Shown here one piece after another: positions 1,254-32,727 of a stretch of 64,000 nt of DNA. Location of the stretch: assembly GCA_000092065.1 (NCBI GenBank), contig CP000596.1; one strand, 5' to 3'. The notes under the pieces are model-generated. The model did no database searches. It was not told the DNA's origin and saw only the letters and a program-made list of their open reading frames with translations. The translations under genes and the position numbers were made by a program. Each line of letters begins with the position of its first letter. Position 1 is the first letter of the stretch. This stretch comes from Ostreococcus lucimarinus (Eukaryota).

Positions 1254-4200
1254 TCAGATGACGGAGCTGTAGCCGTCGACTTGGCGTGACGTCGTCGCGA
1301 CGAGCGACGTACGTTCGGACATTTCGGCGTCGGCTGGACGCGCGCGCGCGCGGAACGCGAACGCGAACAGCGCGACGCACAGCGTGAACGCGAAGGGAGT
1401 GTAAAAAATTGCGACCTTTTGACTGCCGTCGATGTCATCTTGAGGGCTCGATGATGCGAGAGATGATTTTTGTCGTGGAGAAGATCCCGACGACCCTAGT
1501 TGTGGCGTTTCGGCGGTGCTCGCGCCGACGCGCACAGGTGCGACGAATTCAAACTCAGCCGCTGGGTTGCCTGCGACGTCGGTCACTTCCGTAACAGTCA
1601 CTTTGTGATAGCCTTGTGAAAAGTATGGAAACTTCATCAACCAGTGACCACCAGCGCCATCGTTAACGCATTGAAGGACGTACTGTCTCAAGTCTTCGTT
1701 GGAAACGGCTTCGAAGGGACCCGTCGACGAGTTGCCTCGCTTGGCCGTGATCACTTGCTTCGTGCAATCAATGTCTTCCATGAAATCGACGCGTTGCGTT
1801 ACCTGTGAGCTCACATATTTGAAATCACCGACGAGCGGGTCCTTCGTATCTATCTTCACCATGAGATTTTGATCGCTCACAAATTCGTGCACTGACGGCT
1901 TTGCGAGGTGAGATCCGCCCACGCACATTGTTTTCAATCGGATATCATATTTCCCATCTTTATATCCACTCAGAAGTTTGTTGTAAGGGTCGTTTAGATC
2001 CCAGTCAAAGATGCAACCGTCTCCACCCCGCGACTCCGGGCAAAGTAAATTGAAATTCTTATTCGTGCCGGCACCGCGCTCGGCGTCTTTCGCTGTGATC
2101 CATTCGCCTCCTGATACCGAACGATATTGCACGTAGACGTAGGCGAGATTCCCATTCGTCACCAACGCTTCGGACGTGGATGCAGTTTCCTTGGGCCAGA
2201 GAGAATATCTATTCGGATTTACGACCGAGATGCTCAAAACGCTCGAATCAGACGCTGCGCTCTTCTCAAAGTAACTTGCTTCCTTGCTGAGCGTAGACGA
2301 GTGAAAAGCAACTTGAGGGCAATCTTTACTCCACGACATGGCACCGAGTGTAACACTGCTCGAGATGATCGGGCGATACATGTATTCTTCAATCATCGAC
2401 TCACACAAGCTCACCAAGGAAATCCCCAGGTACGAGCTTTCATACACTCCGTCGCTTGGCTCCACGCTCAGAAGCACGCGACTCTCGCGCACAACGCTTT
2501 GCGAATCCATACGCTCTCCAGCCAATCTTCGTAGAGGTAGGACTTCACCGAATGACCACATTTGAATACCATTGATCGAGAACTTCATTCCCTGTAGGAG
2601 TGTTCCTTGTGCTGTAGTGGTTTGCGTGAGACGAGCGATTGCGTTTGCCAACAATCTCCCTGCTCTGACGCTCATTGACTGTTCGTATGACGCTACGATG
2701 TCTTCAATCCGCGCCTTCAGGTCTTGAATGTCATCAGACTCTGACGCAAAGCATTCGTGGCTATCCGCCATGGCGTATGCTGCATTCTTTACGAACGTTG
2801 CGTTGTCCTCGTTCAACTGTGCCGCGTTATGAGCAGCCGCGATGATTTTTCCAACGCAGTCGGCGACTCCATCTACCAAACGAAGGCCCATGTTGGCCAC
2901 TTCCTTGTAGGGCGACTCATTGCTGATGAGAAGTTGGATCAAAGCGTGCTCTCCTGGGTTCAGATTCGTGTTATGCGTCGACTCCTTACCTATGGTAACG
3001 CCAGCTTCTCGGAACATCGTCCATTTTTCTCCCGGACATTGACTTCTGCCGCCCATCGTGATGAACACTGGAGATCCGAAACGTTTGTCGGAACTGACCT
3101 GGAGCACAAACTTATCCCCAAAATCTGGGTCACCTAATGAGTACATCGTGCTCATGTGTTCATACTTTGCCCAGGCAAAGGCACGACTTTTTGAAACTGA
3201 CTTGCTCATATCCGTGGTAGCACCTACATGCCCCTTGACGATGGCGATTGAACCCGCGAAGGAGTATCCGTTTTCAGCTGAGCCGTCCAGGCTGAGCGTC
3301 CATGCGTAATCTTGACCGTCGACGTTTTCGTTGGAAGAAAATATGTACTCTGTCGAAGCACCACCGCCGCTAAACGATAGTAAAATTGCTTCATCAGCGG
3401 GTCCATTCGAATCTGTGGTGGAGTAGCCGCGGGGACCCATACGCCCTGTAAACGACGCATCGACTCGTTTCGTATCGTTCATGTAAATGGATGCATCCTC
3501 TCCGAGCGTAAGATCGCTAAGATCGCTCGATTGAAGTAGTTGTGACGACACGTCTAGAGCCTGCGTTTTGCATTTTTCTGTGATGCAGGATGAAACCGTG
3601 TTGTTCAGATCTTCACGAGTGGGGCTATTCATCCCCATTGTCGTGACGAGCTCATCCGCTTCTTGAAATTGCTCGAGGAACTTCGGCTTCATCCTTTCAC
3701 TCTTTCGTGACCAGAAAACCTTGCCGACGTCTGGGGTGGCGTCGTTATCGTCGTCGTCACCGCGGAACCCAAGGTTTCCACTCAACAAGTCTGAAAATAA
3801 AGTCCCGGGATTGCTAACGTAGCCACTGATGAGCTGGGACAATCGAGATTCATCCGTCTCATCCGAGAGAATGAAGTCGTTAAGTGTGTCTATAGTACCA
3901 TCCGCGTCGCCCAAGTCCCCTGGAACGCCATGTATGTATGGACTAACTCTGTCGATTCTCTTCCAAGCAAGCTTCAACTCGTCTATTGGGGTAGAAATCG
4001 GACCGCTCGCGTCACTTATGAACGATGTTTCCATTTTCTCGGCTTCCATACCGAACGCGGATTGTTCATCCATAAAAGGAACCATGATGCGCTCCATTGC
4101 GCCGTAGTTTTTACCGTACAACACGGGAGCGCCTTCCGCAGTCGGCTCCATAGGAACCTTGTACACTGTTGGCGAAGCCCACAAAAGTGTGCGTTGCCAC

Positions 4201-7200
4201 ACGTTAATTTTGTCAGCGATGTACTGTGGCCAATTAGGCGCTTCCATTTTAGAATCATCCCCGACGATGAGGCCGCTTTCCACGACGGAAAGCAAATACC
4301 GCAAGTTTGGAATCACTTTCGCTTCAATCGAGTGTACCGTGAATATGTAGGACGTGGGTTTCCTCGGCATCCATGTGATCGCCGTCGATATCCGCAAGCA
4401 CGGTTTATCGTCTTCCCTTAGCGCAAGATCGAGCGTATCGGCTAGCCTGTAGACAAGTTCAACGCCGCCACCTAGAATCGCATCGCCCTGTCGTCCCGGG
4501 ATGGCGACGTCGGTACTTGTCCGTATGACACGATTTATCGTAGCCGTGAGATCCCAACCGACGGCGGAACTCTGAGCGACCGAAAATTCTGGTCCAGACT
4601 CCTCATGGTATGCGTCAAAATCTATCTTAAAGAGAGGCATTCCGAGCTGGAATAAAACCTCCATGCCATACCCAGCGCCGAACCCAGGTTTCGCCTCCAC
4701 TTCGAGTTCTACGCCGCCACCGCCTTCGTGTGAACTCGACACAGACGCCGCTTGTTCGTCTGAAAGCTCCACGGACATGGTCACTTCCGTGCCCATAAGA
4801 AGTTCGGCGTAAGAGTTGCCACCGGGCGGATCATGTACCGTCATGTACACCAAACCTTCGAGTGGAACAGTTGCCCAATACACGTCATCGCTTTCTTCGC
4901 CGTAGATCCCTTCGCCTCGCGGTTTCGAGCCAAGAGAGATGAGCTCTCGTTTCAACGGAACTGTCACTGTCATCGAACCATCAAATCTACCCACAGTCAG
5001 TTCGACAGATCTGCGGTAATTTCCTGAGAGCTTAGGATCTCCCGCGACAATGAGTCGATCCGTCGTCTTCTCGCCCTCATCCGTGGGGAATAAAAGTTTG
5101 TCGCTCTCCGGATCGATCTCAACGTCAAAGTCGCACAATGGTCCTCCATTGCGATCGGTATGACATGGATTTTCGGCTATATCGGTGACGCTTTGTCTGA
5201 ACATGGCCACCGTCATCCCGCCGCTCTCGGCGCTAGGCAGTGTCAAGCATTCATCGAGTGAACCATTCTCCACATGCAGTTCAAGTACTTTGGCGCTCAC
5301 AAGTTTCGGCCCCAAAGCGTAGAGCCCTTCTCCACCGAAATCATCAAAAAATGGCGATATCCCAACAAAGTGGTTGTGTCTAATGCCACCAGCTTTCACG
5401 CCATCAACGTCCCAGCAGTAATCGCCATCGTCGGTGATTACAGAAAGATCTACGAACTCTGCGCACAAATAACCGTGGTACTTGTATCTCGCCGAATACC
5501 AAGTGTGCTCAGTGCGTAATGGTACAAGCCTTTCGATCGTTGTTGGATGCTGGCGGAAGTATGGAATGATGCCGTCTACTCCGACATGACACAACGCGTT
5601 CGGATATTTCTCCTCGCGCATCGCCGTGAAATTCGCTGTGGATGGGGCCTCTTCGATCACTACCGAGTAATCCATCGCGGCGAGTGGCCACCGTCTTCCA
5701 TTCGGAACTTCTTGATATGTTGGTATAACGTCTGAGTTTTCCTTGTCGCGGTCAGGTAGAGTCCAGCCGGATACTTGAGCCGAAGTGAAGATGGCTGGTG
5801 GGTGACAGCCATTGATGGGGGTAATTTTGAAAGTCGCCCCTGTGTAAAGCTTTTCACACTCACCTTGATAGACACCCAAATCGACGTTTGCCGTCGTCGT
5901 GTCTGAGAAGAAAATGTACTTTTTCGATGATACGGCGTGGAGAGTAACTGTGGTCGGTTTACCGTCGCAGCTCCAAATTCTCGTAGCTTCCACGATGGTG
6001 GTTCCCGAATAGCAGATTTCGTGACCGGGATATTCCGCGGTTATCGTGTAGGTTTTCCCGTTTGTGACTGCGAATTCGAACCAGCCAGTCTCGTCTGTAG
6101 TGAATTGTCGCGGCGCACCAGCCTCGCTTTCATCTTTGACATAAATGCTTGCCTCAAAAAGTCCACACTCGGACAACTCGGTCCATTCTATTGGGAACAT
6201 GACGGCACCCAAAATGACCACTGTCGTATCGTCCTGCATTTTCTGCTCTACCTGATGATTATGGGTCAGCTCCAGGTTGATGACATCAATATCAGCCGTA
6301 TCCGAAAATACGGTATCACTTTCATATAGGTCACCATCGTCATCCGAAGTTCCAGCTTGCTTGACGACGTCATTGTTGTTGAATACATGCACGATTTCTG
6401 GCAGCTGCTGCGTGCTCCACAGCGCGACATCCAATCCAGGACGAGTGACGCGCGCGAACAGCGTCTGCGGATCATCTTGAACCACGTCGTGCAGTAGTGC
6501 GGCATCTAAGTCAACGAAAATCTTATTCGAGCCGGGAGATGTAGCAAGTAACGGTGTTGCATACACGGAGGTCTCATCGCCGACGACAATGGCATCGAAC
6601 TCGGCGTCTTCGAGAGGGCGACAGTGATCGATTTTTGACACAACATCACCCCCACTCTCTGCGCTGAGCTCATCATACCACTCGTTCCATCCCTCGGAAG
6701 AGTACGGAACGTGGGCTGATGTCGATCTTCGAACGATGAAATTTTCGCACGCTTTGCCAAACACTTGGCTACGCGCATCCTGGTGAGACTCGTCGGCGAT
6801 CGCAGCGCTAACACTCTGCACGGTGAACAAATCGAAGTCGTATGTAATTTTCCGCGGAGGGAATACGAGCACTGGCTCGACAAACAATGTCCGTTGAGCC
6901 AGACGATGCGCCACACTGAGGAATTCTTGTGCGTTCAGAAGTCCATCACCGTCCATATCCAACGACGAATTCCAAAGTTCTTCTGAAATTATCGCGTACC
7001 CATTGCTTGGAAAACTCGCACCTTTCTCGATGATGGCGGTCAACTCTGACTTATCGATGCCCCCGCTTCCATCTGTGTCTGTCTCGTCAAAATCGTGCAT
7101 CGGTGGTGGAGGCGATGGCGGTGGTGGCGATGGCGGCGGCGGCGATGGCGGCGGCGGCGATGGCGGCGGCGGCGACGGCGGCGGTGGCGACGGTGGCGGC

Positions 7201-10200
7201 GGCGGCGATGGCGGCGGCGGCGACGGCGGCGGCGGTGACGGTGGCGGCGACGGCGGCGGCGGCGATGGCGGCGGTGGTGATGCGATGCGCTCGACCCAGT
7301 GAACGTTTGTGAGAGAACCGGCCTTGACAGAGATATCCGCATGCAGCGGGTACTCGGGAGTCTGTTGACTGGTGTAAAAGCGAATTTCATTCTTGAAGTA
7401 CTCCACGGCTCCGGCGTCGTTGATGACGATTTGCAGCGAGTCGGACGAAGAGTAAGTCCCAGCCATCGTATACTCACGCTTGCCTTTCTCGTACACCTTG
7501 ATCTGTTTGGTATGCGTACAAAAAATCGCAAAATCAAGACTTTGATAATTCGTCGAATCCGTCGTCGACTGAGAGTTCAAACCGATCATCCTGTTGTTGT
7601 ATCCTCCGGCACAGACTGCGGAGATGCCACGCACAGAGTCAGAACCATTTCGAATAGCGCGCTGACTCACCGCACCGGCGTCCCAAGCGCCAGTCACTGC
7701 AGCCGTGCGCGTGACTTGGCCGCTTTCTGTGGATTCGACGCCGACTTGCGATACCCACGCGACATGATCGTCCGCCACCGCCTTTCCTGGCGGCGGCGGC
7801 GGCGGTGACGGTGGCGGCGGCGACGGCGGCGGCGGTGACGGTGGCGGCGGCGACGGCGGCGGCGGCGGCGACGGCGGTGGTGACGCGATGCGCTCGACCC
7901 AGTGAACGTTTGTGAGAGAACCGGCCTTGACAGAGATATCCGCATGCAGCGGGTACTCGGGAGTCTGTTGACTGGTGTAAAAGCGAATTTTATTCTTGAA
8001 GTACTCCACGGCTCCGGCGTCGTTGATGACGATTTGCAGCGAGTCGGACGAAGAGTAAGTCCCAGCCATCGTATACTTACGCTTGCCTTTCTCGTACACC
8101 TTGATCCGTTTGGTATACGTACAAAAAATCGCAAAATCAAGACTTTGATAATTCGTCGAATCCGTCGTCGACTGAGAGTTCAAACCGATCATCCTGTTGT
8201 TGTATCCTCCGGCACAGACTGCGGAGATGCCACGCACAGAGTCAGAACCATTTCGAATAGCGCGCTGACTCACCGCACCGGCGTCCCAAGCGCCAGTCAC
8301 TGCAGCCGTGCGCGTGACTTGGCCACTTTCTGTGGATTCGACGCCGACTTGCGATACCCACGCGACGCTACCAAGTATCTCGCCCGCCACCGCCTTTCCT
8401 GGCGGCGGCGGCGGCGGCGACGGCGACGGCGGCGGCGGTGACGGTGGCGGCGACGGCGGCGGCGGCGATGGCGGTGGTGGTGACGCCATGCGCTCGACCC
8501 ATTTAACATCGCTGAAGGAACCACGCATAATAAAAGCAACATCCGCGTGCAGCGGGTACTCGGGAGTCTGTTGACTGGTGTAAAAGCGAATTTCATTCTT
8601 GAAGTACTCCACGGCTCCGGCGTCGTTGATGACGACTTGCAGTGTATCGCTGTCCGTATACGCCACTGCAGCACCCTTAATTTTTTTACCACCTTCGTAC
8701 ACTTCAACTGCATCGGAGTGAAAATTGCATCTGATGCTGAAGTCCATTCGACTGGACACGGTCTCTGCCGCGGACTGCCGATTCAAGCCGATGAACTTGA
8801 GGCCGGACTCAGACCCACAACGAGCCGAGATTCCGCGCACTGAGTCCGTCAGGCCGTGGATCGACCGACGACTCACCGCACCGGCTGCGGAAAAATAATT
8901 CCACCAATTTGGAGATCGCCGCCAAACTTTTCGATTCGACGCTTTGGCTCTGCGAAGCGTCACCCAGACCACGTTGCCAACCGCCGCTTTTTCAGGCGGC
9001 GGCGGCGGCGGTGGCGACGGCGGCGGTGGCGACGGCGGCGGTGGTATGTACTGCGCAATGTTCCCCAGGAGGCGGCGCCCCCAGCGCTGCCTACCCAAGA
9101 GTGACGTCGTGGTTTCAGGAGATGACGAATCATCTTCCTTTAAGACCAATAAGACTTTACTGGGTACGTTCAGCGGGTCTGTCACGTCCGACGTTTGCAA
9201 GATGGGCTGCGTCGTCTTTTCAAAAACTTCCACTTTGTACGCCCCGATGTCAACGTGAGTTTTGATTGGCGTCATACCCGTGGAGTCTGTGATATGAACA
9301 ACAAACGATCCTTCCGAATCAGTGACCGCGCTGAAAGGGCATCGCGTCTCACCACCCAATACTCTTATTTCAGTCAAATTGACGTCTCGAACCGCCACGA
9401 CTGATACAAACTGCCCGTGCATCGCCTGCACAGTGTCGCCCCCGCCCCCCCCGCATGTAAACGTCAAACAGTCTGCGAATTCATCACTGACATCAGACGG
9501 ATCGTGGTTACATGCATATCCATAATTAGTCGTGTCTTCGGGATCGATTTCATGCACGTGCACTTTCATCGGTAAACTAAGCGTCGGACTCGCCTGTTGC
9601 CGAAATTCAAATCCCGTTACTTCAACTTTGCTCGATTCCGCACCAAACGAAATCTCGGGGAAAGTTATGTATTGATCTTGAGATGATATGAGGGTGGCGT
9701 TGAAACGTCTCCACGATTCCTCATGTATGGTGAATGATTCCGTACTGGCGTCAGTGGCGGATGTTCCGCGCAAGTCGATTGACACCGCGCGTTCACCACC
9801 CAAAGACTTCGCCCAAAACGACACCACGACAGAATCTCCAGTCAGGGCGCGCAAAGACTCGCCAGGAACGTGCACCGTGACTGAAACGCCTGCGTCCACC
9901 GATTTTACAACGTCCTCGAAACCAGGTGGAGGCGCAGTTGGGCTCGCGGTTAAAGGACTGATGGCGCTTGTCTGAACAAGCTCGAGGCGTTCGGTGAGAG
10001 TATTAAGAGTGAAATGAGCTCCGGTGAAGTAGAACGTACTTTCCGACCAAGCTGATACAGTAAATCCGACGAAAGCGGCGTCCTCTAACGTGTGCTTAAG
10101 CCTTATTTTCCTCCATTTATTCGGTTCAGCTGTAATGACGAGCGCGTCACCAACGGTCTGACGGCCTGCTGCTGTAGTTTGTTGTTCATACCCTAAAATC

Positions 10201-13162
10201 TGGAAAGTCATAATCGCCTCCTTCCCGACGGCGCGTACCCAGCATTCCAACAACACTGTATCACCAGCTTCGGCGTCTAGTCGATCAGTATTTTTCGCCC
10301 AGAGTTTCTCGTCTGCTCGCACGAGTCGGATGACATCATTCTCGTAACGAGGTGGATCAACGATCACGTCTGGATCATCGCCTGTATCGCCAGAATACCC
10401 CAGTCGGTCGGTGAGAGAACCCTCGGCAAGTTGGCGTGCCTTGATCGATTGCGGCTGTAGACATACTTGAACACTGCCTATTGACATCCAAAGACCAAGA
10501 TCGACGCGCGCGTAGCCACCCGTCGATACGACGACAGATTCACCGGTAGGTATGTGATTCCCATCGGTGAGCGTGTACGCTTGTTCATTCAAAGGGTTTG
10601 AGTATGCGTGCTTGAAAAGTGCGACATTGCTGGAAGATGATTCGACGTCGTCGCTCGGCCGTAAAGTTATCGTCGAATTCTCATTTTCATCCGCGTCTGG
10701 AGGCCTGGACCCTCGGTAATTTGCGACCTCCCCATCTATTACGATCGGGTCGTGAAAATTAGCGCATATTCGGACGTCGGGTACTGGAACAGCGGAATCA
10801 CCGGCGTACACGTAACCACCTACCTCTCCGTGCCAGGGCGTGATGAATTTGAAAGGGACAGAGTTTATACTTCCACCGGATGATGTTTTCGTCACCACCT
10901 TATACTTCCAAATCTGTCCTGGGATTGCCGCCGCCTCTCTGTCGGCGAAAAGCAACGGCGCGTACGATCGATGACAGTACGTGAGGCCACTGTCAATCAT
11001 CACCACTGACTCATAAGGTGCATCCGTCAGAGAATCCTGCATGCTTTGACGAAGAATCTCGAACCCAACGTCATTCCAGGCGGTATCACGGAAGCTGAAA
11101 GTGACTCCTACTGGATCCAGTTTTCCGTTGACGTCAATAGTAGAACCATCGTAGTACAATCCACCTCCACATTCAAACTTTGAGTAAGTTTCCTCGCGAG
11201 CGTCCGAAATGACGCCACTTAAACACACAATTCTTCGAGCTTTTGGTGCGGATGATTGACGAAGCACGCAGCGCTTGTAATGTCCACATCTTACGGTATC
11301 AATGAACATCACTTCGCGTATCACTCCGGTATACACTCGAACGTCGTCGAATTCAAAATCCACCGCGCCAAGCAGTGTAACGTCCGTCATTGACTCGAGC
11401 GCGCTCAGCGGCCAAGTTTCATCGCGCGTGTAAGTCGTATCATCGATTACTGTGGCCTTTGCGTCACTCGTTGGATCTACGTACAATGTCATGAAATTCA
11501 CCGAGTTTACGGCGAACGCGATGAGGTGCCACTCCCCGTCGCACGCAAAATCAAGTTTCACATCCTTTGAGGATGTGAAAGCGCTCGGAGGATCCACAGA
11601 CTCCTTGACCTGATGAGATGCCCGCAGTTCGACCATGCCGTCGCTCGTACGTATCTTGAGGTATACGTGGAGTCTGTGATCGTGAAGTCCCAACTGTCCT
11701 TGAAACTGAGCGACCGTCATGAGTGATTCGTCGTTGGAGGATTTGGGTTGCGAGCAACGACTTGGATCGATGCGCACCCATGTGCTCATCGCGATGTCGT
11801 GCCCAAGCGTATCTTCTTTATCAAGAGAGTATGAATAATCGTTCGTCCCAGGATCATCCACTGCTTGAAGGCAGCGAAATCCGTTGCCCCCCGAACATCC
11901 CGATATTGTGCGAGCGGATTTCGGCTGCAATCTCATCGGGACGGAAGACTGTCCGTCGACGATTGGCGCGACCGAATCAAGCGATCCGTCGTGTAAAGGG
12001 TCTTCATCAAACGTAAATGCTGCCACGAGAGAAGCGTGTTCGTCGAGAAAGTCACTCGTTGCTGGGCGAATGTCCGTGAAGGAGATGGGAAGTTGAAGCG
12101 TCGTGCCGCCGACTTCATACTCTTCAAAGCGCACATCGACGACGTCGTCGACTGTACCGTCGGCAACGTTGATCTGATTGAAGAGTATACCATCCACGTA
12201 TGCGCAGACGTAATCGCCGTTCGTTGGCTTAGGACTGTACGACCATGCAGTGGTGAGCCCGTTGAGGCCACTCACACAGCGATTCTCCGTTTGCCAGTCG
12301 AGAGTCGGATAGGTGATGCTATCGATACTGAAACTGTTCGACGGAGCTCCGCTGCACTTGACGGGTCGAACGGGGATTTCCATCACGTCGACAATAGACA
12401 CTGCCAGATCTGTGTCGTGCGCGGCGCGAAATTGGTCATTCCAAACGTTGAGAATGTACCTCGAAACGCTTTGTTCCACCAACATGGCCTGAAGTTCATT
12501 CAGTCGCAGCAGTCCGTCGCTGGGATCGACGTCGTGCCTACGAAAGATGCTTTCCTTTGTCTTGTAAATTTCGCCATCATCGCACAGCACGTTGTTGAAT
12601 TGATCGTTACTCAGCAATATGTACCGGACCAGTTCTTCAAGCCCCGAATTCTGATTCGCGCTCGCTTGGCCGGCGGCGTTGAATCCGAGAGGCAGGTGCA
12701 AATCGCAACCCTTGATAACTTCGAAAGAGTGTTGACCAACGGTTTCCGAACCTGGAACGATGCCATCGACCGTAACAAAGTGACAGTTATAAGTTATGGT
12801 GTGAGATCCAACCGAGTGCGTCCCATCCAACTCTGTGAGCGCGAGCGCCTTCGGGAAAAAATCATTCCATTTGCGACACGGTAAGTTATCCGCGTAATCC
12901 GACTCGGAACACGACTGATCGTCTCGTTTCACGCGAACATCGCATCGGAGACCAAGCGCGTGATTGCTCACGCTCTCTTCATTCACATTCAGTAAACAAT
13001 CGCTCGCTTCAGCGCACGCGGGATGATGCACCGCGACTTGGAAATCGTACGAGTACGCCGCAACCCTCTCCGTGGTGGAACCAAATCTCACTTCAATCGC
13101 AGCACCGGCACCAGGCGGCGGCGGTGGACTCGGCGGCGGCGGGCTCGGCGGCGGGCTCGGCG

Positions 13163-13202
<40 letters not shown>

Positions 13203-13569
13203 CGGACTCGGCGGCGGCGGCGGGCTCGGCGGCGGCGAACAATTCGCTATACCCTCGCAATTCTCCGTTCGTGTTTGTCCCTCATACGCTCCACAACTTC
13301 GTCCACCGTTTCGCGGCTTGACGGTGATCGTGAACGTCTGCGAGTACGTCGCCGGTCCGCAAAAAGCCGTGCAACTCCCTTGCCAAAAGCCTACACAATC
13401 CGTTTTCGGCGGCGACGGCGACGACCCCCCGTGGACCCCTCGCAGCGACGACAGCGCGCTCGCGACGACCAACCCGCGCATCATCGTTCGCGTCGCGTCC
13501 CATCGACGTCCGGCGCCATCGCGCGTCGTCGACCGCGACGGCGCGCGTCGTTCGCGAAGCTGACGCGGC

Positions 13570-13571
<2 letters not shown>
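1254..13571 (-). CDS. Giant (about 4,080-4,105 aa) single-exon cell-surface protein with a C-terminal TM anchor. N to C: signal peptide, TSP1-like Cys motif, extensin-like (S)PPPP spacers, LamG/concanavalin-like region, three tandem ~190-aa repeats, EF-hand/dockerin-like Ca-binding pair, ~2,500-aa C-terminal ectodomain. Function unknown.
   Basis: The ORF is uninterrupted for 12,318 nt on the minus strand. The probable true start is the ATG ATG at 13479-13484, giving MMRGLVVASALSSLRGVHG, which looks like a signal peptide. The TSP1-like motif is CVGFWQGSCTAFCGP...RNGGRSCGAYEG...NCEG. SPPPPSPPPP runs are encoded by GGCGGCGGCGGCGAY tracts. The LamG-like signature is FACDGEWHLIAFAVNSVNFMTLYVDPT. 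The Ca-binding loops are DTDGSGGIDKSE and DMDGDGLLNAQE. The C-terminal TM helix is VAIFYTPFAFTLCVALFAFAF, followed by a short tail. Confidence 0.8.
7040..9060 (-). repeat. In-frame tandem array of a roughly 600-bp unit (two near-identical 603-bp copies plus one or two diverged copies) inside the giant gene. Each unit encodes a ~160-aa domain plus a PPPS spacer.
   Basis: The string cgctcgacccagtgaacgtttgtgagagaaccggccttgacagagatatccgcatgcagcgggtactcgggagtctg occurs at 7291 and again at 7894, a period of 603 bp (201 codons). A diverged copy begins at 8494. The duplicated spurious ORFs in the track (MILRFFVRIPN..., MNVCERTGLD...) reflect the same repeat. Confidence 0.85.
13113..13240 (-). repeat. 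Coding G-rich 12-15-nt periodic microsatellite (GGCGGCGGCGGGCTC-like) encoding the (S)PPPP extensin-like spacer. Similar tracts lie at about 7100-7290, 7790-7890, 8395-8490 and 8990-9045.
   Basis: The periodicity is visible directly in the sequence. Read on the minus strand it gives SPPPPSPPPPPSPPPP. Confidence 0.7.
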
Positions 13572-18358: not shown

Positions 18359-19315
18359 TTAATCGAACGGGTCGATGCGAGGATCGTGCTCGGTCGCGAG
18401 CGCCATCCCGGTGCACAAGCACGACGTGCACATAACCTTCGCCGTGCCGCTGCACGTCGGACAAATACATCTCGTGTTCGACGTCGGATCGATCAATCGC
18501 CCCGGGCGGTTGCTCGTCGAGCACTCCGCGCACTGTAAGTACCCACTCCCCTTGCAATACATGCAAATCTTCTTGCGCTGCTCTTTGACGTTTTGAATTT
18601 CGATGACGAAGAAGGCGGAAATCGCCCCCACGGCGCCGCCCGTGAACGAAGCCACGATCGGATCAACCTGCGCGAGCTGCGCGGGCAAGTGCACGCTATC
18701 TATGAACTCCGCGTACGACGTCCCGCCGAGCCCGAGTTTCACTTCCGCCATGGGTGCGATCAACCCTCCGAAGAGGAGCAAAAATCCCACCGCCGCGCCC
18801 CAATAAATCCGATAATCCTTCACGCTATCCTCCGTCAACACCGGGAATCCCGGGATCACGGACTCGAACTCCCGCGTCTCCTTCACCTCATCGTCGTCCA
18901 ACCCGATCGTCTTCACGCGCTGCTGCACCCGCAACCGTCGCAACTCCTCCATCAACAAAAACAATCGCTGTCGGCGACTCTCGATGTTCTGCGCGATCTC
19001 CCCCGCCTGCATGTCCGCGAAATCCACCACACTGTTCCGCCCCTCGATGATGCAATAATTCTCCGGCAACGCTTGCGAATCAAAATCTCGCGCCTCGCCC
19101 TCCGCGTCGTCCTCCTCCGCGTCGTCGTTCGCCGCCGTCGTCGCCGCGCCCTCGCCTTCGCCCTCGCCGATCGCTCTGCGCGTCCCTCCCGCGCGCGTTC
19201 GCGCCCATTCCGCGCGCGCCGTCCGCGACGCTTTCGCGCGCATCCGCACTCGCGCGTTCACCGCCCCCGTTCGCGCGCGCATCGCGCATCGCGTCGTCGG
19301 CGTCGTCGCGCGCAT
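18359..19315 (-). CDS. OR: ORANGE (OR) protein: plastid DnaJ-like Cys-rich zinc-finger membrane protein, the phytoene-synthase holdase
   Basis: Near-identity to plant OR over the conserved core: CIIEGR..VDFA.M...I..NI.SRR...FLLMEE.RRLR.QQR; GLGGTSYAEFI; QVDPIVASFTGGAVGAISA; CMYCKGSGYLQC; KVMCTSCLCTGMALATEHDPRIDPFD. There are two TM helices and CxxCxGxG motifs. Confidence 0.9.
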   Translation of the reverse strand: MRATTPTTRCAMRARTGAVNARVRMRAKASRTARAEWARTRAGGTRRAIGEGEGEGAATTAANDDAEEDDAEGEARDFDSQALPENYCIIEGRNSVVDFADMQAGEIAQNIESRRQRLFLLMEELRRLRVQQRVKTIGLDDDEVKETREFESVIPGFPVLTEDSVKDYRIYWGAAVGFLLLFGGLIAPMAEVKLGLGGTSYAEFIDSVHLPAQLAQVDPIVASFTGGAVGAISAFFVIEIQNVKEQRKKICMYCKGSGYLQCAECSTSNRPGRLIDPTSNTRCICPTCSGTAKVMCTSCLCTGMALATEHDPRIDPFD

Positions 19316-19517
19316 GGCGCGACGCTTTTCGCCCTTTCGCGTCTTCTCGACGCCGTCGACGCGTCGTCGGGCCGCCGTTCGGCGTCGCGAGGCGGTCGGT
19401 CGGCGCGCGCGCTCGCGCGCTCGCGCTCGCGCGTCGCCGCGCGCGTCGGCGTCGGCTCGAGGCGCGCTGTGCGGCGTCGACGCGCGCGCGGGTTATCCGG
19501 AGCGGCCGTCGCCGCTG

Positions 19518-19533
19518 AACCCTAGCTAGGGTT
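19518..19533. promoter_or_regulatory. Perfect 16-bp palindrome AACCCTAGCTAGGGTT (telo-box-like AACCCTA core on both strands) in the OR/QS bidirectional promoter
   Basis: Read directly from the sequence; it is self-complementary. It contains TAGGGTTTAG, which is about 1.4 units of the plant telomere repeat TTTAGGG. It lies within the 384-bp spacer between divergent start codons 19315 and 19700. Confidence 0.4.
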
Positions 19534-19699
19534 TAGACGTATCCATCGCCGACGCCGTCGCCGCGACACGGCGACGCGCGCCGACCGCCCGACGCGCGCG
19601 CGCGACGCCGACGCGCGCGCGACGCTCGCGCCGACCGCCCGCGCGCGCCGACGCGCGCCGACGCGCCGACGCGCCGACGCGACGACGCGAAACGTCGCG

Positions 19700-21742
19700 A
19701 TGACGGCGGCTCGGACGTCGTCGACGTCGGCGCGCGCGACGACGCGCGGGACGGCGACGGCGAGGCGCGGAAGAGCGCGACGCGGCGCGGAAGAGCGACG
19801 CGCGATCGCGCGGCGCGCGATGACGCGCGAGACGACGACGGGCGGGAGCGTGCGGGAGCGCGCGTCGGCGGCGAGCGCGAGGGTTCGGGACGCGGGCGCG
19901 AGCGTCGCGGACCGCGTGAAATGGTTGATCGCGCTCGCGCGAACGCGGGGCGGCGACGACGCGTGGCTGGACGAGGATGGGAGAAATGCGACGACGCGCG
20001 TGATGGGGTGCGCGTCGGCGAGCTGGATCGAGGCGGTGGTGGATGAGGCGAGCGGACGGGTGCGAGCGCGATGCGCGAGCGAGAGCGACGCGACTCGAGG
20101 ATACGGAACGTTGTTGTGCGAGGCGTTGAGCGGTGGGACGGTGGATGAGTGCTTGGAGCTGGGAGATGATTTCGTGGACGCGATGGAGATCGGGATCGGG
20201 TCCAAGGTGGAGAAGTCGCGAACGAATGGGTTTAAGAATATGTTAGAGACGGCGAAGAAGCAGTTGCGAACGCTTCGAGCCGACGCCGGAGGGGATCCGT
20301 TTCCGAGCTTGATCGTCACCGCGGACGAAGTGCGATCGCGTGGATCGTTTGCGGCGTCGCAGGCGTCGTATTTGGAGCCCGATGCGGGCAAAGTGAAGGC
20401 TTTGGTCGAGGCGTTGTCGACGAAGAAGATCGGCATCGTGGCGCACTTTTACATGGATCCCGAGGTGCAAGGCATTTTGATGGCCGCAAAGGCGTCGTAT
20501 CCGCACATCGCCATCAGCGATTCGCTCGTCATGGCGGATTTAGCGGTGAAGATGGTCGAGGACGGGTGCGAGACGATCGGGGTGTTGGGGGTGGATTTCA
20601 TGTCTGAGAACGTTCGCGCCATCATCGACGAAGCCGGGCACGCGGACGCCAAGGTGTATCGCATGGCGGCGGAAGACATCGGATGCTCGCTCGCGGAAGC
20701 CGCACAGAGCGAAAGTTACGATAGCTATCTCGAAGATGCGAGTAAGACGAAGAACTCGGTGCACGTGATTTACATCAACACTGGTTTGGACACCAAGGCG
20801 GCGGCGAATGCGAAAATTCCCACCATCACGTGCACGTCTTCCAACGTCGTGGCGACGGTTTTGCAAGCCGCGGCGCAGATTCCCGACGTGCACGTATTTT
20901 ACGGCCCCGATACGTACATGGGCGGGAACTTGGCCGAGCTCTTGCGTCGGATGACGACGTGGGACGACGAGGACATCAAGGCGATGCATCCGGCGCACGA
21001 CAGAGAAACCGTCAAGGCGCTCTTGCCTCGTTTGAAGTACTTCAACGACGGCACGTGCATGGTGCACGACATGTTCGGCGAAGACGTTTGCAACACCGTG
21101 CGCGCGTTTTACGGCGATGCGTACCAAACCGCGCACTTTGAAGTTCCCGGAGAAATGTTCAAGCTCGCCATGGAGGCGAAGGATCGCGGGTTGGGCGTCG
21201 TCGGCTCGACGCAAAACATCTTGGATTACACGTGCGCGCGCGTGGACGAAGCCATCGAGCGCGCGCTTCCCGAAGGCGAACGTTTGCGATTCGTGCTCGG
21301 CACCGAGACTGGGATGGTGACGTCCATCGTGCGCGCGGTGCAGGCGCGTCTTCGCGCGGCGCGCGACGCGGGCGTTCGCGGCGTCGAAGCCGAAATCGTC
21401 TTCCCAGTTTCCGCCGACGCCATCACCGCCACGGGCGACGCGGAGATCCCTGTCGTGCCCGGCGTCGTCGCGGGCGAAGGGTGCTCGCTCGACGGCGGGT
21501 GCGCGTCTTGTCCGTACATGAAGATGAACTCGTACGACGCGTTGATGAAGATGTGCGACAAAATCGGCTCCGCCGCCGGCGAAGCCGTGCTCGCCGCGCA
21601 GGAGCCGCGCAAATACGAAAGCGCGGACGGCGCGGGTCCATCCATCGCATCGCAAGGATGCGTTCCGATCTTACACATGCGGCATTTCCAAAAGAACAAG
21701 ACGTTTAGCGACGCGTTGGTCGAGGACATCACCACTCGTTAA
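19700..21742 (+). CDS. QS: Quinolinate synthase (NadA) with an N-terminal SufE-like domain (the plant plastid QS/SufE3 architecture) and a transit peptide
   Basis: The SufE-like region reads RVMGCASASWIEAVVDE...LLCEALSGGTVDECLEL. The NadA core includes IGIVAHFYMDPEVQG, ITCTSSNVV and GTETGMVTSIV, plus a C-terminal GCSLDGGCASCPYMKMN. Confidence 0.9.
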   Translation: MTAARTSSTSARATTRGTATARRGRARRGAEERRAIARRAMTRETTTGGSVRERASAASARVRDAGASVADRVKWLIALARTRGGDDAWLDEDGRNATTRVMGCASASWIEAVVDEASGRVRARCASESDATRGYGTLLCEALSGGTVDECLELGDDFVDAMEIGIGSKVEKSRTNGFKNMLETAKKQLRTLRADAGGDPFPSLIVTADEVRSRGSFAASQASYLEPDAGKVKALVEALSTKKIGIVAHFYMDPEVQGILMAAKASYPHIAISDSLVMADLAVKMVEDGCETIGVLGVDFMSENVRAIIDEAGHADAKVYRMAAEDIGCSLAEAAQSESYDSYLEDASKTKNSVHVIYINTGLDTKAAANAKIPTITCTSSNVVATVLQAAAQIPDVHVFYGPDTYMGGNLAELLRRMTTWDDEDIKAMHPAHDRETVKALLPRLKYFNDGTCMVHDMFGEDVCNTVRAFYGDAYQTAHFEVPGEMFKLAMEAKDRGLGVVGSTQNILDYTCARVDEAIERALPEGERLRFVLGTETGMVTSIVRAVQARLRAARDAGVRGVEAEIVFPVSADAITATGDAEIPVVPGVVAGEGCSLDGGCASCPYMKMNSYDALMKMCDKIGSAAGEAVLAAQEPRKYESADGAGPSIASQGCVPILHMRHFQKNKTFSDALVEDITTR

Positions 21743-31736: not shown

Positions 31737-32010
31737 CGCGCGCGCGTTTTACCCCATCATCGCGCGTTCGCGTTCGCCGACCCCGCGACGCGCGTAAATT
31801 CCGAGATGGGCGTCGCGAGGCGCGGAATGCGCGATCACCGATCGACGGCGTCGATGACCGATCGTGGGAATCGCGGTTACGGGCGCGACGCGCGATCGCG
31901 GAATTCACGCGCGCGCCGGCGCGAACCCCGCGGGGCGACCGGCGGCACATCGTCGCGCGTCGCGGAGCACTCAGGACGCTCTTAAGAAGGCAACGCGCGA
32001 GGATAAAATC

Positions 32011-32239: not shown

Positions 32240-32297
32240 GTGCGTGCGCGAGGCGACGCGATTCGACGCGATGCGACGCGCGAGGACGGGGGGGTGG

Positions 32298-32307
32298 AAA
32301 ACCCTAA
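32298..32307. promoter_or_regulatory. Telo-box AAACCCTAAA inside the RPL30e intron
   Basis: The intron sequence ggaaaaccctaaagacgg holds 1.4 units of the CCCTAAA (TTTAGGG) telomere repeat. In plants this matches the telo-box cis-element typical of ribosomal-protein gene 5' regions and introns. Confidence 0.4.
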
Positions 32308-32362
32308 AGACGGCGACGACGCGCGAGAGACTGACGAAGACGACGAACGCGTCGCGTGAACA

Positions 32363-32469
32363 GATAACGTCGATCTCGGCACGGCGTGCGGTCGATACTA
32401 CCGCGTGTCTTGCATGTCGATCACCGATCCGGGCGACTCCGACATCGTCAAGGCGGTGCCGGAGGAGTA
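32363..32469 (+). CDS. RPL30: 60S ribosomal protein L30e, exon 2 (the 123-nt intron spans 32240-32362)
   Basis: After the splice (phase 1) the exon encodes [35 protein letters not shown], which matches the RPL30e C-terminus ([29 protein letters not shown]). The intron carries the branch motif GAGACTGACGA and a CAG acceptor. Confidence 0.85.
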
Positions 32470-32727
32470 AACGCGCGAAGCCGTTCGGCGACGCGCGGGC
32501 GATTCTTCGGACGATGATTGGTTCGGGCGATCGCGACGCGATCGACGTCGCGAGTTTGCTTGTAATAGATCATCGACTCGCTTCGAGAGTTATTTTAAAT
32601 CGGTCAAACGTCGCGGGTGGTGATGAAACTCTGTATCTGGTCTTCTTTCCACTGAGGAGACGTCGTCTCGGCGACGTCATGAAGAGAATGTCCGCATACC
32701 TTCTGAACCCAACTCTCTTTTGCGTCG

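What the first reader, a model, noticed from the sequence alone, without database searches (positions are those of the whole stretch)
19518..19533. Perfect 16-bp palindromic telo-box (AACCCTAGCTAGGGTT) in the bidirectional promoter of ORANGE and quinolinate synthase
This AT-containing motif sits in an otherwise almost pure GC spacer, so it stands out. It presents the plant telo-box core AACCCTA on both strands, and the palindrome suggests binding by a dimeric factor. It sits between two divergently transcribed plastid-function genes whose ATGs are 384 bp apart (OR, a holdase for phytoene synthase; QS with a SufE Fe-S domain). It may co-regulate them.
Basis: partly seen in the sequence, partly recalled or inferred. 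Interest (0 to 1): 0.5.

Follow-up and report, generated by a model that had tools for sequence, protein, structure and literature searches.

The report
Conserved telomere-like promoter motif pair
Two back-to-back copies of the alga's own telomere repeat sit in the shared promoter of two chloroplast-related genes in Ostreococcus, and comparison with related species suggests they are a real regulatory site of the plant "telo-box" kind, in a group of algae where that system has not been described.

Summary
The 16-bp palindrome AACCCTAGCTAGGGTT is present at 19518-19533. The window is Ostreococcus lucimarinus, and the site lies between divergent ORANGE (OR) and SufE-quinolinate synthase (QS) genes.

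A 16-bp palindrome is not unusual in itself. About 4 are expected per 64 kb, and 0.6 with at least 8 A/T bases. What is unusual is the 7-mer AACCCTA, which matches the Ostreococcus telomere unit. It occurs only three times in the window, all in non-coding DNA near gene 5' ends.

The OR-QS spacer cannot be aligned between species, yet it holds two AACCCTA copies in 4 of 6 Ostreococcus lineages, spanning the deepest split sampled. The copies are inverted and abutting only in the O. lucimarinus clade. They are direct repeats 83 bp or 35 bp apart elsewhere. One sister pair of lineages has lost them. The QS-proximal copy keeps its orientation and lies about 160-185 nt from the QS start codon.

The third copy lies in the intron of ribosomal protein L30. 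A telo-box or near-match sits in that intron in all three other Ostreococcus lineages checked. A Micromonas-like contig carries it in the opposite orientation.

I read the site as a functional telo-box pair. The palindrome is lineage-specific. TRB proteins are an unlikely reader, because they are reported only from streptophytes. Co-regulation and genome-wide enrichment could not be tested.

The parts
19518..19533 (.). Perfect 16-bp palindrome AACCCTAGCTAGGGTT, made of two inverted, abutting telo-box cores.
   Evidence: It is identical in a close relative (L008) and in two O. lucimarinus metagenome contigs (L065, L090).
19515..19525 (+). Left (OR-side) site, CTGAACCCTAG, with the C-rich strand on the + strand.
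   Evidence: It matches the 11-nt consensus CTNAACCCTAG. Seven of the eight spacer sites match this consensus in full; one L005/L006 copy ends in C instead of G. L008 has CCCTAAACCCTAG here, which is 12 nt of perfect telomere repeat.
19526..19536 (-). Right (QS-side) site, read on the - strand as CTAAACCCTAG. This is the full telo-box AAACCCTAG, and its first 10 nt are perfect telomere repeat.
   Evidence: This QS-proximal copy, with the G-rich strand on the QS sense strand, is present in all four motif-bearing lineages. It ends 166, 158, 166 and 184 nt before the QS ATG.
19492..19503 (.). GTTATCCGGAGC, a companion conserved block containing TTATC (GATAA on the other strand).
   Evidence: It is identical in L008. 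TTATC lies 18-25 nt to the left of the motif cluster in five of six Ostreococcus lineages, including those without telo-boxes.
19461..19476 (.). GGCGCGCTGTGCGGCG, the left edge of the best-conserved part of the spacer.
   Evidence: In the pairwise alignment of window and L008, 30-column windows spanning 19463-19551 are 83-90% identical, against 75% for the whole aligned stretch 19244-19699.
18359..19315 (-). ORANGE (OR) homologue with a Cys-rich DnaJ-like zinc-finger C-terminus, transcribed leftwards.
   Evidence: No Pfam family was hit. The annotated start may be 19243.
19700..21742 (+). SufE-NadA quinolinate synthase (QS), transcribed rightwards.
   Evidence: NadA E=1.3e-26, SufE E=4.3e-16.
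32298..32308 (+). AAAACCCTAAA, a second and independent telo-box in the window. It lies inside the 124-nt intron (32240-32363) of the ribosomal protein L30e gene (ATG 32011, stop 32468-32470).
   Evidence: the spliced protein hits Ribosomal_L7Ae/L30e at E=8.6e-24. The motif is kept in the same intron in O. tauri (L132) and L133, with a 1-mismatch form in L134. A Micromonas-like contig (L135) has it in the opposite orientation.

Best explanation
The palindrome is a pair of telo-box-type cis-regulatory sites in the shared promoter of the divergent OR and QS genes of Ostreococcus lucimarinus. Telo-boxes are short interstitial copies of the organism's own telomere repeat; here the consensus is CTNAACCCTAG.

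**Proposed mechanism (inferred).** A sequence-specific double-stranded telomere-repeat-binding protein occupies each site independently of orientation. The most likely kind is a Myb 'telobox'-domain factor other than TRB. It promotes or tunes transcription, as plant telo-boxes do for housekeeping and translation-related genes.

**Which gene is the target.** The QS-proximal copy keeps both its orientation and its distance of about 160-185 nt from the QS start codon, so QS is the more likely primary target.

**Role of the palindrome.** The back-to-back arrangement is a lineage-specific packing of two older sites, not the functional unit.

**Shown versus inferred.**
- Shown: the sequence, its rarity, its match to the telomere repeat, its position, its conservation and turnover, and a second conserved telo-box in a ribosomal protein gene.
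- Inferred: the binding protein, the direction of the regulatory effect, and any co-regulation of the two genes.
For: 1. AACCCTA occurs only 3 times in 64 kb (both strands). All three are non-coding and near gene 5' ends.
2. OR-QS synteny holds across six Ostreococcus lineages and in Bathycoccus-like L009.
3. The spacer is essentially unalignable between species (mean column identity 44%). Even so, two AACCCTA copies are present in O. lucimarinus, L008, O. tauri and L005/L006. The chance of two or more copies per spacer is about 1e-4 to 3e-4.
4. Neighbour-joining trees of QS and OR proteins give ((O. tauri, L005), ((O. lucimarinus, L008), (L002, L007))). The pair therefore spans the deepest split sampled, and its absence is explained by one loss.
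5. Seven of the eight spacer sites share the extended form CTNAACCCTAG; one L005/L006 copy ends in C. The flanks follow the telomere register, and L008 has CCCTAAACCCTAG.
6. The spacing from the QS-proximal copy to the QS ATG is 166, 158, 166 and 184 nt.
7. Independent locus: the RPL30 intron telo-box is kept in O. tauri and L133, in a 1-mismatch form in L134, and inverted in a Micromonas-like contig, where it is the only telo-box in 9.2 kb. Orientation independence points to recognition of DNA rather than RNA.
8. The Ostreococcus telomere repeat is TTTAGGG (PMC3318450, PMC8287931).
9. The same 16-mer lies 11-35 nt upstream of start codons of dynamin-related, E2 ubiquitin-conjugating and RPL34e genes on contigs that look plant-derived. 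The double inverted telo-box therefore recurs in 5' regions elsewhere.
Against: - No transcription start sites, expression data or protein-binding data were available. The position relative to the transcription start is unknown.
- The element is missing from the L002-L004/L007 clade, from Bathycoccus-like loci and from a Micromonas-like OR locus. It is therefore not essential for either gene.
- Only about 30 promoters could be inspected. Just one of them has the motif, plus one intron, so promoter enrichment genome-wide is untested.
- OR and QS are not the translation-related genes with which plant telo-boxes are classically associated.
- The canonical plant reader, TRB, is reported to be absent outside streptophytes (PMC10167121), and no Ostreococcus reader was identified here.
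- The lineages are related, so the four occurrences are not four independent events.
Confidence: 0.6

Rival explanations
1. A neutral short interstitial telomere-like sequence. It would be a by-product of telomerase or repair activity, or a chance local inverted duplication, with no regulatory role.
For: - Perfect 16-bp palindromes are expected by chance at about 0.6 to 4 per 64 kb.
- The palindromic form is confined to one clade, and the motif was lost outright in the L002/L007 clade without disrupting the gene pair.
- Head-to-head telomere-repeat junctions exist in other organisms' contigs, for example L078 and L041.
Against: - Two copies persist across the deepest Ostreococcus split in DNA that is otherwise unalignable.
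- Their distance to the QS ATG is similar in all four lineages, and seven of the eight sites share an extended 11-nt form.
- OR-QS synteny reaches Bathycoccus-like L009, so no chromosome fusion occurred here.
- A second telo-box, in the RPL30 intron, is conserved as far as a Micromonas-like contig.
Confidence: 0.17
2. A binding site for a factor unrelated to telomere-repeat recognition, for example another Myb or GARP-type protein that recognises CTAGGGTT. The resemblance to the telomere repeat would then be coincidental.
For: - The position next to the core varies (CTG/CTA/CTC-AACCCTAG), and the base after the core is G rather than the telomeric A at most sites.
- TRBs are absent from chlorophytes according to PMC10167121.
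Against: - L008 carries 12 nt of perfect telomere repeat, and the right arm of the window site carries 10 nt.
- The RPL30 intron sites read AAAACCCTAAA, the canonical telo-box.
Confidence: 0.15
3. A structural element: a DNA cruciform, or a hairpin in a 5' UTR RNA, formed by the palindrome.
For: The sequence is a perfect inverted repeat with no spacer. A 6-bp hairpin stem is predicted.
Against: - Folding energy is not unusual: z = -1.3, and 25 of 200 shuffles fold at least as well.
- O. tauri and L005/L006 keep the motif as direct repeats 83 bp and 35 bp apart, which cannot form this structure.
- The RPL30 site is a single copy and occurs in either orientation.
Confidence: 0.04
4. The template region of a telomerase RNA gene, or another small RNA gene hidden in the spacer.
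For: The minus strand reads CTAAACCCTA, which is one telomere unit plus 3 nt and so a typical template length. PMC8287931 lists six unresolved telomerase-RNA-like loci in O. lucimarinus.
Against: - No Rfam match was found in the spacer at E<=10 other than noise, and none in the whole window at gathering thresholds.
- The motif is absent from the orthologous spacer of two Ostreococcus lineages.
- Both O. tauri copies read CTGAACCCTAG, which would template the wrong repeat.
- By eye I found no CCCRTAA upstream sequence element within 200 nt on the relevant strand (no pattern search was run).
Confidence: 0.02

Closest known systems
Plant telo-box (AAACCCTAA/G), a short interstitial telomere motif in promoters, 5' UTRs and first introns of Arabidopsis and rice genes
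   Same: - The core sequence is the same and equals the host's telomere repeat.
- The location is non-coding and close to gene 5' ends.
- Function appears independent of orientation.
- Only a minority of genes carry it (about 9-15% of promoters in Arabidopsis and rice, PMC2576244).
- It occurs in a ribosomal protein gene (RPL30 here), the classic plant target class (PMC3212954).
   Different: - The host is a chlorophyte of the order Mamiellales. The papers I could search place telo-box enrichment at land plants or at the base of streptophytes, and the only chlorophyte they sampled was Chlamydomonas, which has a different telomere repeat (PMC3212954; bioRxiv 10.64898/2026.09.09.750301).
- The known readers, the TRB proteins, are reported to have arisen in streptophytes (PMC10167121).
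- The flanking genes, OR and QS, have plastid-related functions rather than roles in translation.
- I did not look for an accompanying site II motif (TGGGCY).
Inverted double telo-box AACCCTAGCTAGGGTT in 5' leaders of land-plant genes
   Same: The exact 16-mer lies 11-35 nt upstream of the ATG of dynamin-related, UBC-type E2 and RPL34e genes on plant-like metagenome contigs. The dynamin-related case recurs across several related contigs.
   Different: Those copies lie very close to the start codon, probably within the 5' UTR. Here the site is 166 nt and 202 nt from the two ATGs. The source organisms of those contigs were not identified, so 'plant-like' is my reading of the sequences.
Head-to-head interstitial telomeric repeats left by chromosome fusion (for example human 2q13)
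   Same: Telomere-type repeats meet in inverted orientation.
   Different: There are only about 1.4-2 repeat units per arm. Gene order across the site is conserved as far as Bathycoccus-like L009, so the site is not a fusion scar.

Membership tests
Plant-type telo-box cis-element | The sequence matches AAACCCTA(A/G). | tested here: met
   The minus-strand arm reads AAACCCTAG. The plus-strand arm reads GAACCCTAG, which has the 7-nt core only. L008 has AAACCCTAG on both arms.
Plant-type telo-box cis-element | The motif is a fragment of the organism's own telomere repeat. | tested here: met
   The Ostreococcus telomere is TTTAGGG/CCCTAAA according to PMC3318450 and PMC8287931. The right arm matches 10 nt of it, and the L008 left arm matches 12 nt. 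The telomere sequence is taken from the literature and was not seen in the window.
Plant-type telo-box cis-element | Preferred position around the transcription start (about -60 to +140 in Arabidopsis, PMC2576244). | not testable with these tools
   No transcription-start or transcript data were available. The site is 166 nt from the QS ATG and 202 nt from the OR ATG, which is compatible but not informative.
Plant-type telo-box cis-element | Genome-wide enrichment in promoters, especially those of translation-related and housekeeping genes. | tested here: inconclusive
   - Only 64 kb plus orthologous loci could be examined.
- All 3 copies in the window are non-coding, and one is in the RPL30 intron.
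- The only other copy examined outside the focal regions, in O. tauri (L001:8976), is coding and looks like chance (and my own codon reading). A further copy in L007 (position 1139) was not examined.
Plant-type telo-box cis-element | Evolutionary retention at orthologous non-coding positions. | tested here: met
   - OR-QS spacer: 4 of 6 Ostreococcus lineages, two copies each.
- RPL30 intron: an exact telo-box in 3 of the 4 Ostreococcus lineages (the window included) and in a Micromonas-like contig, and a 1-mismatch form in the fourth.
Plant-type telo-box cis-element | Bound by TRB-type (Myb plus H1/H5) proteins. | not testable with these tools
   No proteome or binding data were available. PMC10167121 places the origin of TRBs in streptophyte algae, so this feature is probably not met and another reader is implied.
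Bidirectional (shared) promoter | Divergent genes whose starts are less than 1 kb apart. | tested here: met
   The spacer is 384 bp (or 456 bp). The arrangement is conserved in six Ostreococcus lineages and in Bathycoccus-like L009.
Bidirectional (shared) promoter | Correlated expression of the two genes that depends on shared elements. | not testable with these tools
   No expression data could be accessed.
Telomerase RNA gene | A template embedded in a structured RNA with a pseudoknot and an upstream Pol III type-3 promoter. | tested here: not met
   No Rfam hit. The motif is absent from two orthologous spacers. By eye I found no upstream sequence element.
Chromosome-fusion interstitial telomeric sequence | Inverted arrays of many repeats at a break in synteny. 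| tested here: not met
   There are fewer than 2 repeat units per arm, and synteny is intact on both sides as far as Bathycoccus-like L009.

The most novel reading that the evidence does not exclude
Telo-box regulation is older than the TRB protein family. On this reading it was already operating in the common ancestor of Mamiellales and possibly of all green plants. It would be read in these picoalgae by a different telomere-repeat-binding factor, and it would link telomere-repeat recognition to the expression of ribosomal-protein genes and some plastid-function genes. This would overturn the current inference that telo-box cis-regulation arose with TRBs at the base of streptophytes or in land plants.
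Probability: 0.4. Interest if true: 0.6.

Novelty: new member of a known kind. Interest (0 to 1): 0.42.

Why it matters
Telo-boxes are among the best-known plant promoter motifs. They link telomere-repeat-binding proteins to chromatin control (PRC2, JMJ14) and to ribosome-biogenesis genes.

The papers I could search describe this link as specific to land plants or streptophytes. The only chlorophyte they tested was Chlamydomonas, whose telomere repeat differs.

Conserved telo-boxes in Ostreococcus, and a matching one in a Micromonas-like contig, would place the motif's regulatory use near the base of the green lineage. They would also imply a reader other than TRB.

These algae have tiny, compact genomes, and O. 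tauri can be transformed, so the idea is directly testable. For the specific locus, the result identifies an approximately 80-bp conserved core (19461-19538) of the OR/QS promoter that could be used in expression studies or engineering.

Tried and rejected
1. **Tara header as a transcript 5' end.** I first read the header 'start:215' on the OR protein cluster as a transcript 5' end falling inside the palindrome. It is most likely a gene-call coordinate on an assembled contig, not a transcription start, so I dropped it.
2. **Multiple alignment of the six spacers.** The spacers are too diverged and too CG-repetitive for a meaningful alignment, so I compared motifs and distances instead.
3. **Palindromy as a statistic.** It is not significant on its own.
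4. **Metagenome scan for the 16-mer.** Only two were O. lucimarinus, both from this same locus. It therefore cannot show whether the palindrome recurs elsewhere in the genome. It did show that the 16-mer recurs in plant-like 5' leaders and in head-to-head telomere arrays.
5. **Cruciform or hairpin.** Folding is unremarkable.
6. **Telomerase RNA or another small RNA.** No Rfam match.
7. **O. tauri L001:8976 AAAACCCTAAAA.** By my own codon reading it lies in the coding sequence of the S1-domain gene (reading ...FRVLKM...), so I treated it as chance.
8. **Bathycoccus-like and Micromonas-like OR loci.** They carry no telo-box, so the OR-QS element is specific to the genus Ostreococcus.
9. **Piganeau et al. 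2009 (phylogenetic footprinting in Ostreococcus, PubMed 19693423).** This paper is not held in the library and could not be checked. It may already list this motif.
10. **Search for an Ostreococcus telobox-Myb protein.** I did not attempt it, because a plant query would return only land-plant hits among the 120 rows listed.

Full report
**1. What is in the sequence**

The 16-mer AACCCTAGCTAGGGTT is at 19518-19533. It is unique in the window even with two mismatches allowed, and none of 100 shuffles produced it. It extends to a 22-bp palindrome with one mismatched pair: CTGAACCCTAG|CTAGGGTTTAG, 19515-19536.

The window is Ostreococcus lucimarinus. The ORF at 18359-19315 (-) is 100% identical to a CCE9901 protein and 55% identical to a plant protein named 'protein ORANGE, chloroplastic-like'. 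The ORF at 19700-21742 (+) has SufE and NadA domains.

The NCBI model is 24 residues shorter, which would make the spacer 456 bp. The spacer is 79% G+C, and its lowest-GC 20-mer starts at 19523, within the motif.

**2. Is it more than chance?**

- As a palindrome, no. A 16-bp palindrome needs only eight matches.
  - The window has 18 of them, and 17 have fewer than 8 A/T bases.
  - First-order Markov simulations give 4.0 per 64 kb, and 0.6 with at least 8 A/T bases.
- As a pair of a rare word, yes.
  - AACCCTA occurs three times on both strands of the window.
  - Two of the three make up the palindrome.
  - At the background rate in about 128 kb of Ostreococcus DNA outside the spacers (3.9e-5 per bp), two or more copies in one spacer has a probability of about 1e-4 to 3e-4.

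**3. Comparative evidence at the OR-QS spacer**

I fetched the orthologous locus from O. tauri (L001) and from four unnamed Ostreococcus lineages found in metagenomes. Their OR proteins are 96% (L008), 93% (L002-L004), 83% (L007) and 77% (L005/L006) identical to the window's. I also fetched two Bathycoccus-like loci (L009, L011) and one Micromonas-like locus (L010).

The divergent OR-QS arrangement is kept in all six Ostreococcus lineages and in Bathycoccus-like L009. The spacers do not align outside the closest pair. The motif content is nevertheless as follows:

| Lineage | Telo-box content of the spacer |
|---|---|
| Window (O. lucimarinus) | GCTGAACCCTAGCTAGGGTTTAGAC |
| L008 | CCCTAAACCCTAGCTAGGGTTTAGAC: a 20-bp perfect palindrome whose left arm is 12 nt of perfect telomere repeat |
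| O. tauri (L001) | CTAGGGTTCAGCG twice, 83 bp apart and in the same orientation, inside a local tandem duplication |
| L005/L006 | CCCTAGGGTTGAGCACG and CGTAGGGTTGAGTACG, 35 bp apart, in the same orientation |
| L002-L004 and L007 | none |
| Bathycoccus-like and Micromonas-like loci | none |

- Outside the spacer these loci contain almost no AACCCTA.
- Written on the C-rich strand, seven of the eight spacer sites read CTNAACCCTAG. One L005/L006 copy ends in C.
- Neighbour-joining trees of both proteins give ((O. tauri, L005), ((O. lucimarinus, L008), (L002, L007))) with Bathycoccus as outgroup.
- The simplest history is therefore a pair of sites already present in the ancestor of the sampled genus, followed by one loss.
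- The QS-proximal copy always has its G-rich strand on the QS sense strand. It ends 166, 158, 166 and 184 nt before the QS ATG; the last figure spans a 20-N assembly gap.
- Between the window and L008, 30-column windows spanning 19463-19551 are 83-90% identical, against 75% for the whole aligned stretch (19244-19699). The longest identical run that is not a CG repeat is AACCCTAGCTAGGGTTTAGAC.

**4. A second, independent telo-box**

The third AACCCTA in the window (AAAACCCTAAA, 32298-32308) lies in the 124-nt intron of the ribosomal protein L30e gene. I reached the orthologous genes through the neighbouring pheophytinase-like gene.

| Locus | Sequence in the orthologous RPL30 intron |
|---|---|
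| O. tauri (L132) | GAAAACCCTAGAG |
| L133 | GAAAACCCTAAAA |
| L134 | GAAAGCCCTAGCC (one mismatch) |
| Micromonas-like L135 (70% G+C) | GCAAACCCTAAAAACC, in the opposite orientation, and the only telo-box in 9.2 kb |

The rest of the intron is not conserved. This is the classic plant context for a telo-box: a ribosomal protein gene, downstream of the transcription start. The orientation flip points to recognition of DNA rather than RNA.

**5. What the wider scan showed**

The exact 16-mer was scanned against the metagenome collection. The scan stopped at 120 stretches, which fall into 77 loose clusters.

- Two stretches are this same O. lucimarinus locus (L065, L090).
- No other contig with an Ostreococcus-like composition appeared. 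Because the scan was truncated, this says little.
- Many hits look plant-like. In these the 16-mer lies 11-35 nt upstream of start codons of dynamin-related (recurring across several related contigs), UBC-type E2 and RPL34e genes.
- Others are head-to-head telomere arrays, for example L078: (AAACCCT)n-AGCT-(AGGGTTT)n.
- The base just outside each arm is A in 64 of 154 arms. That extends the match to AAACCCTAG more often than a 25% per-base expectation.

**6. Literature**

- The Ostreococcus telomere repeat is TTTAGGG (PMC3318450), and PMC8287931 lists CCCTAAA for O. lucimarinus.
- In Arabidopsis, telo-boxes are preferentially located from -60 to +140 relative to the transcription start and occur in about 11-15% of promoters (PMC2576244).
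- The link between telo-boxes and ribosomal-protein genes was described as specific to land plants, after negative results in Ectocarpus and Chlamydomonas (PMC3212954).
- TRB proteins are reported to have arisen in streptophyte algae (PMC10167121).
- A 2026 preprint infers the first telobox enrichment near the base of streptophytes. Its only chlorophyte was Chlamydomonas (10.64898/2026.09.09.750301).
- No paper in the library pairs 'telo-box' with Micromonas, or AAACCCTA with an analysis of Ostreococcus promoters.
- The one directly relevant study, Piganeau et al. 2009 on phylogenetic footprinting in Ostreococcus, is not held.

**7. Interpretation**

The best reading is a pair of functional telo-box-type sites in a shared promoter (confidence 0.6).

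- The palindrome is a lineage-specific arrangement of two older sites. The dimer idea is therefore not what conservation supports.
- QS is the more likely primary target, because the QS-proximal copy keeps its orientation and spacing.
- The element is not essential. The L002/L007 clade lost it and carries instead GAGTCATGACTC followed by AAGAGTCCCC at the same position. O. tauri has both that motif set and the telo-boxes.
- This looks like ordinary turnover of binding sites within a promoter core whose position is fixed. The core is also marked by a conserved TTATC 18-25 nt to the left of the motif cluster.

The rivals are a neutral interstitial telomere-like sequence (0.17), an unrelated factor that happens to recognise CTAGGGTT (0.15), a DNA or RNA structure (0.04) and a telomerase RNA template (0.02). 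Each is addressed in its own entry.

**8. Verdict**

- The kind of element is known (the plant telo-box), but its host lineage is new for the literature I could search.
- The evidence rests on two loci and has no expression or binding data, so I score interest as moderate (0.42).

Noticed in passing
window 32298-32308 (RPL30e gene: ATG 32011, intron 32240-32363, stop 32468-32470): A canonical telo-box, AAAACCCTAAA, lies in the single intron of ribosomal protein L30e. It is kept in the orthologous intron of O. tauri (L132) and L133, with a 1-mismatch form in L134. A Micromonas-like contig (L135) has it in the opposite orientation.
   Followed up: yes
L001:5600-5860, L002:5790-5830, L007 spacer; L132-L134 upstream of RPL30: A recurrent motif pair, GAGTCA[T/C]GAC(TC) followed about 5-10 nt later by (A)AGAGTCCCC(C). 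It occupies the position of the telo-boxes in the OR-QS spacer of L002 and L007, and O. tauri has it as well as telo-boxes. It also appears upstream of RPL30 in O. tauri (three tandem copies), L133 and L134. It looks like a general Ostreococcus promoter element. It is absent from the O. lucimarinus OR-QS spacer.
   Followed up: partly
window 31981-31991: CTTAAGAAGGC lies about 20 nt upstream of the RPL30 ATG. CTTAAGAAGGC is shared by the window, O. tauri, L133 and Micromonas-like L135, and L134 has the variant CTTAAGAAAGC. It may be a transcription-start or leader element of ribosomal protein genes.
   Followed up: no
window 19493-19497 (within GTTATCCGGAGC, 19492-19503): TTATC (GATAA on the other strand) lies 18-25 nt to the left of the motif cluster in five of six Ostreococcus OR-QS spacers, including the lineages that lack telo-boxes. 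It may be a GATA or I-box-like companion site.
   Followed up: partly
window 1254-13571 (-): A single uninterrupted 4105-aa ORF with only sub-threshold EF-hand matches. It coincides with the low-GC part of the window (51-60% G+C, against 60-70% elsewhere). My codon-usage model, trained on neighbouring genes, did not recognise it.
   Followed up: partly
L001:5526-5545 and 5690-5860 (O. tauri CAID01000017.2): The O. tauri OR-QS spacer contains a tandem duplication (period about 83 bp) that carries the whole motif set, and a 20-N assembly gap. The annotated QS start there (622 aa) appears to lie downstream of an in-frame MAAAMRR... start.
   Followed up: no
window 19243-19315: The first in-frame ATG of OR (19315) gives 318 aa, the length used in JGI and Tara gene calls. 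The NCBI O. lucimarinus model is 294 aa, consistent with a start near 19243. The true start is unresolved, and it changes the spacer length from 384 to 456 bp.
   Followed up: partly
L078:409-424, L041, L046, L058 (metagenome contigs): Perfect head-to-head telomere-repeat junctions, (AAACCCT)n-AGCT-(AGGGTTT)n, occur in contigs from unidentified organisms. The group L013/L020/L097/L105/L115 carries the 16-mer next to a second telomere-like inverted repeat, CTAAACCCTGATTAGGGTTTAG.
   Followed up: no
L025, L040, L050, L067, L074, L081, L082, L094, L021/L043/L120: The exact 16-mer lies 11-25 nt upstream of the start codon of a dynamin-related (DRP1-like) gene on several related low-GC contigs that look plant-like. 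This suggests a conserved double telo-box in that gene's 5' leader.
   Followed up: partly
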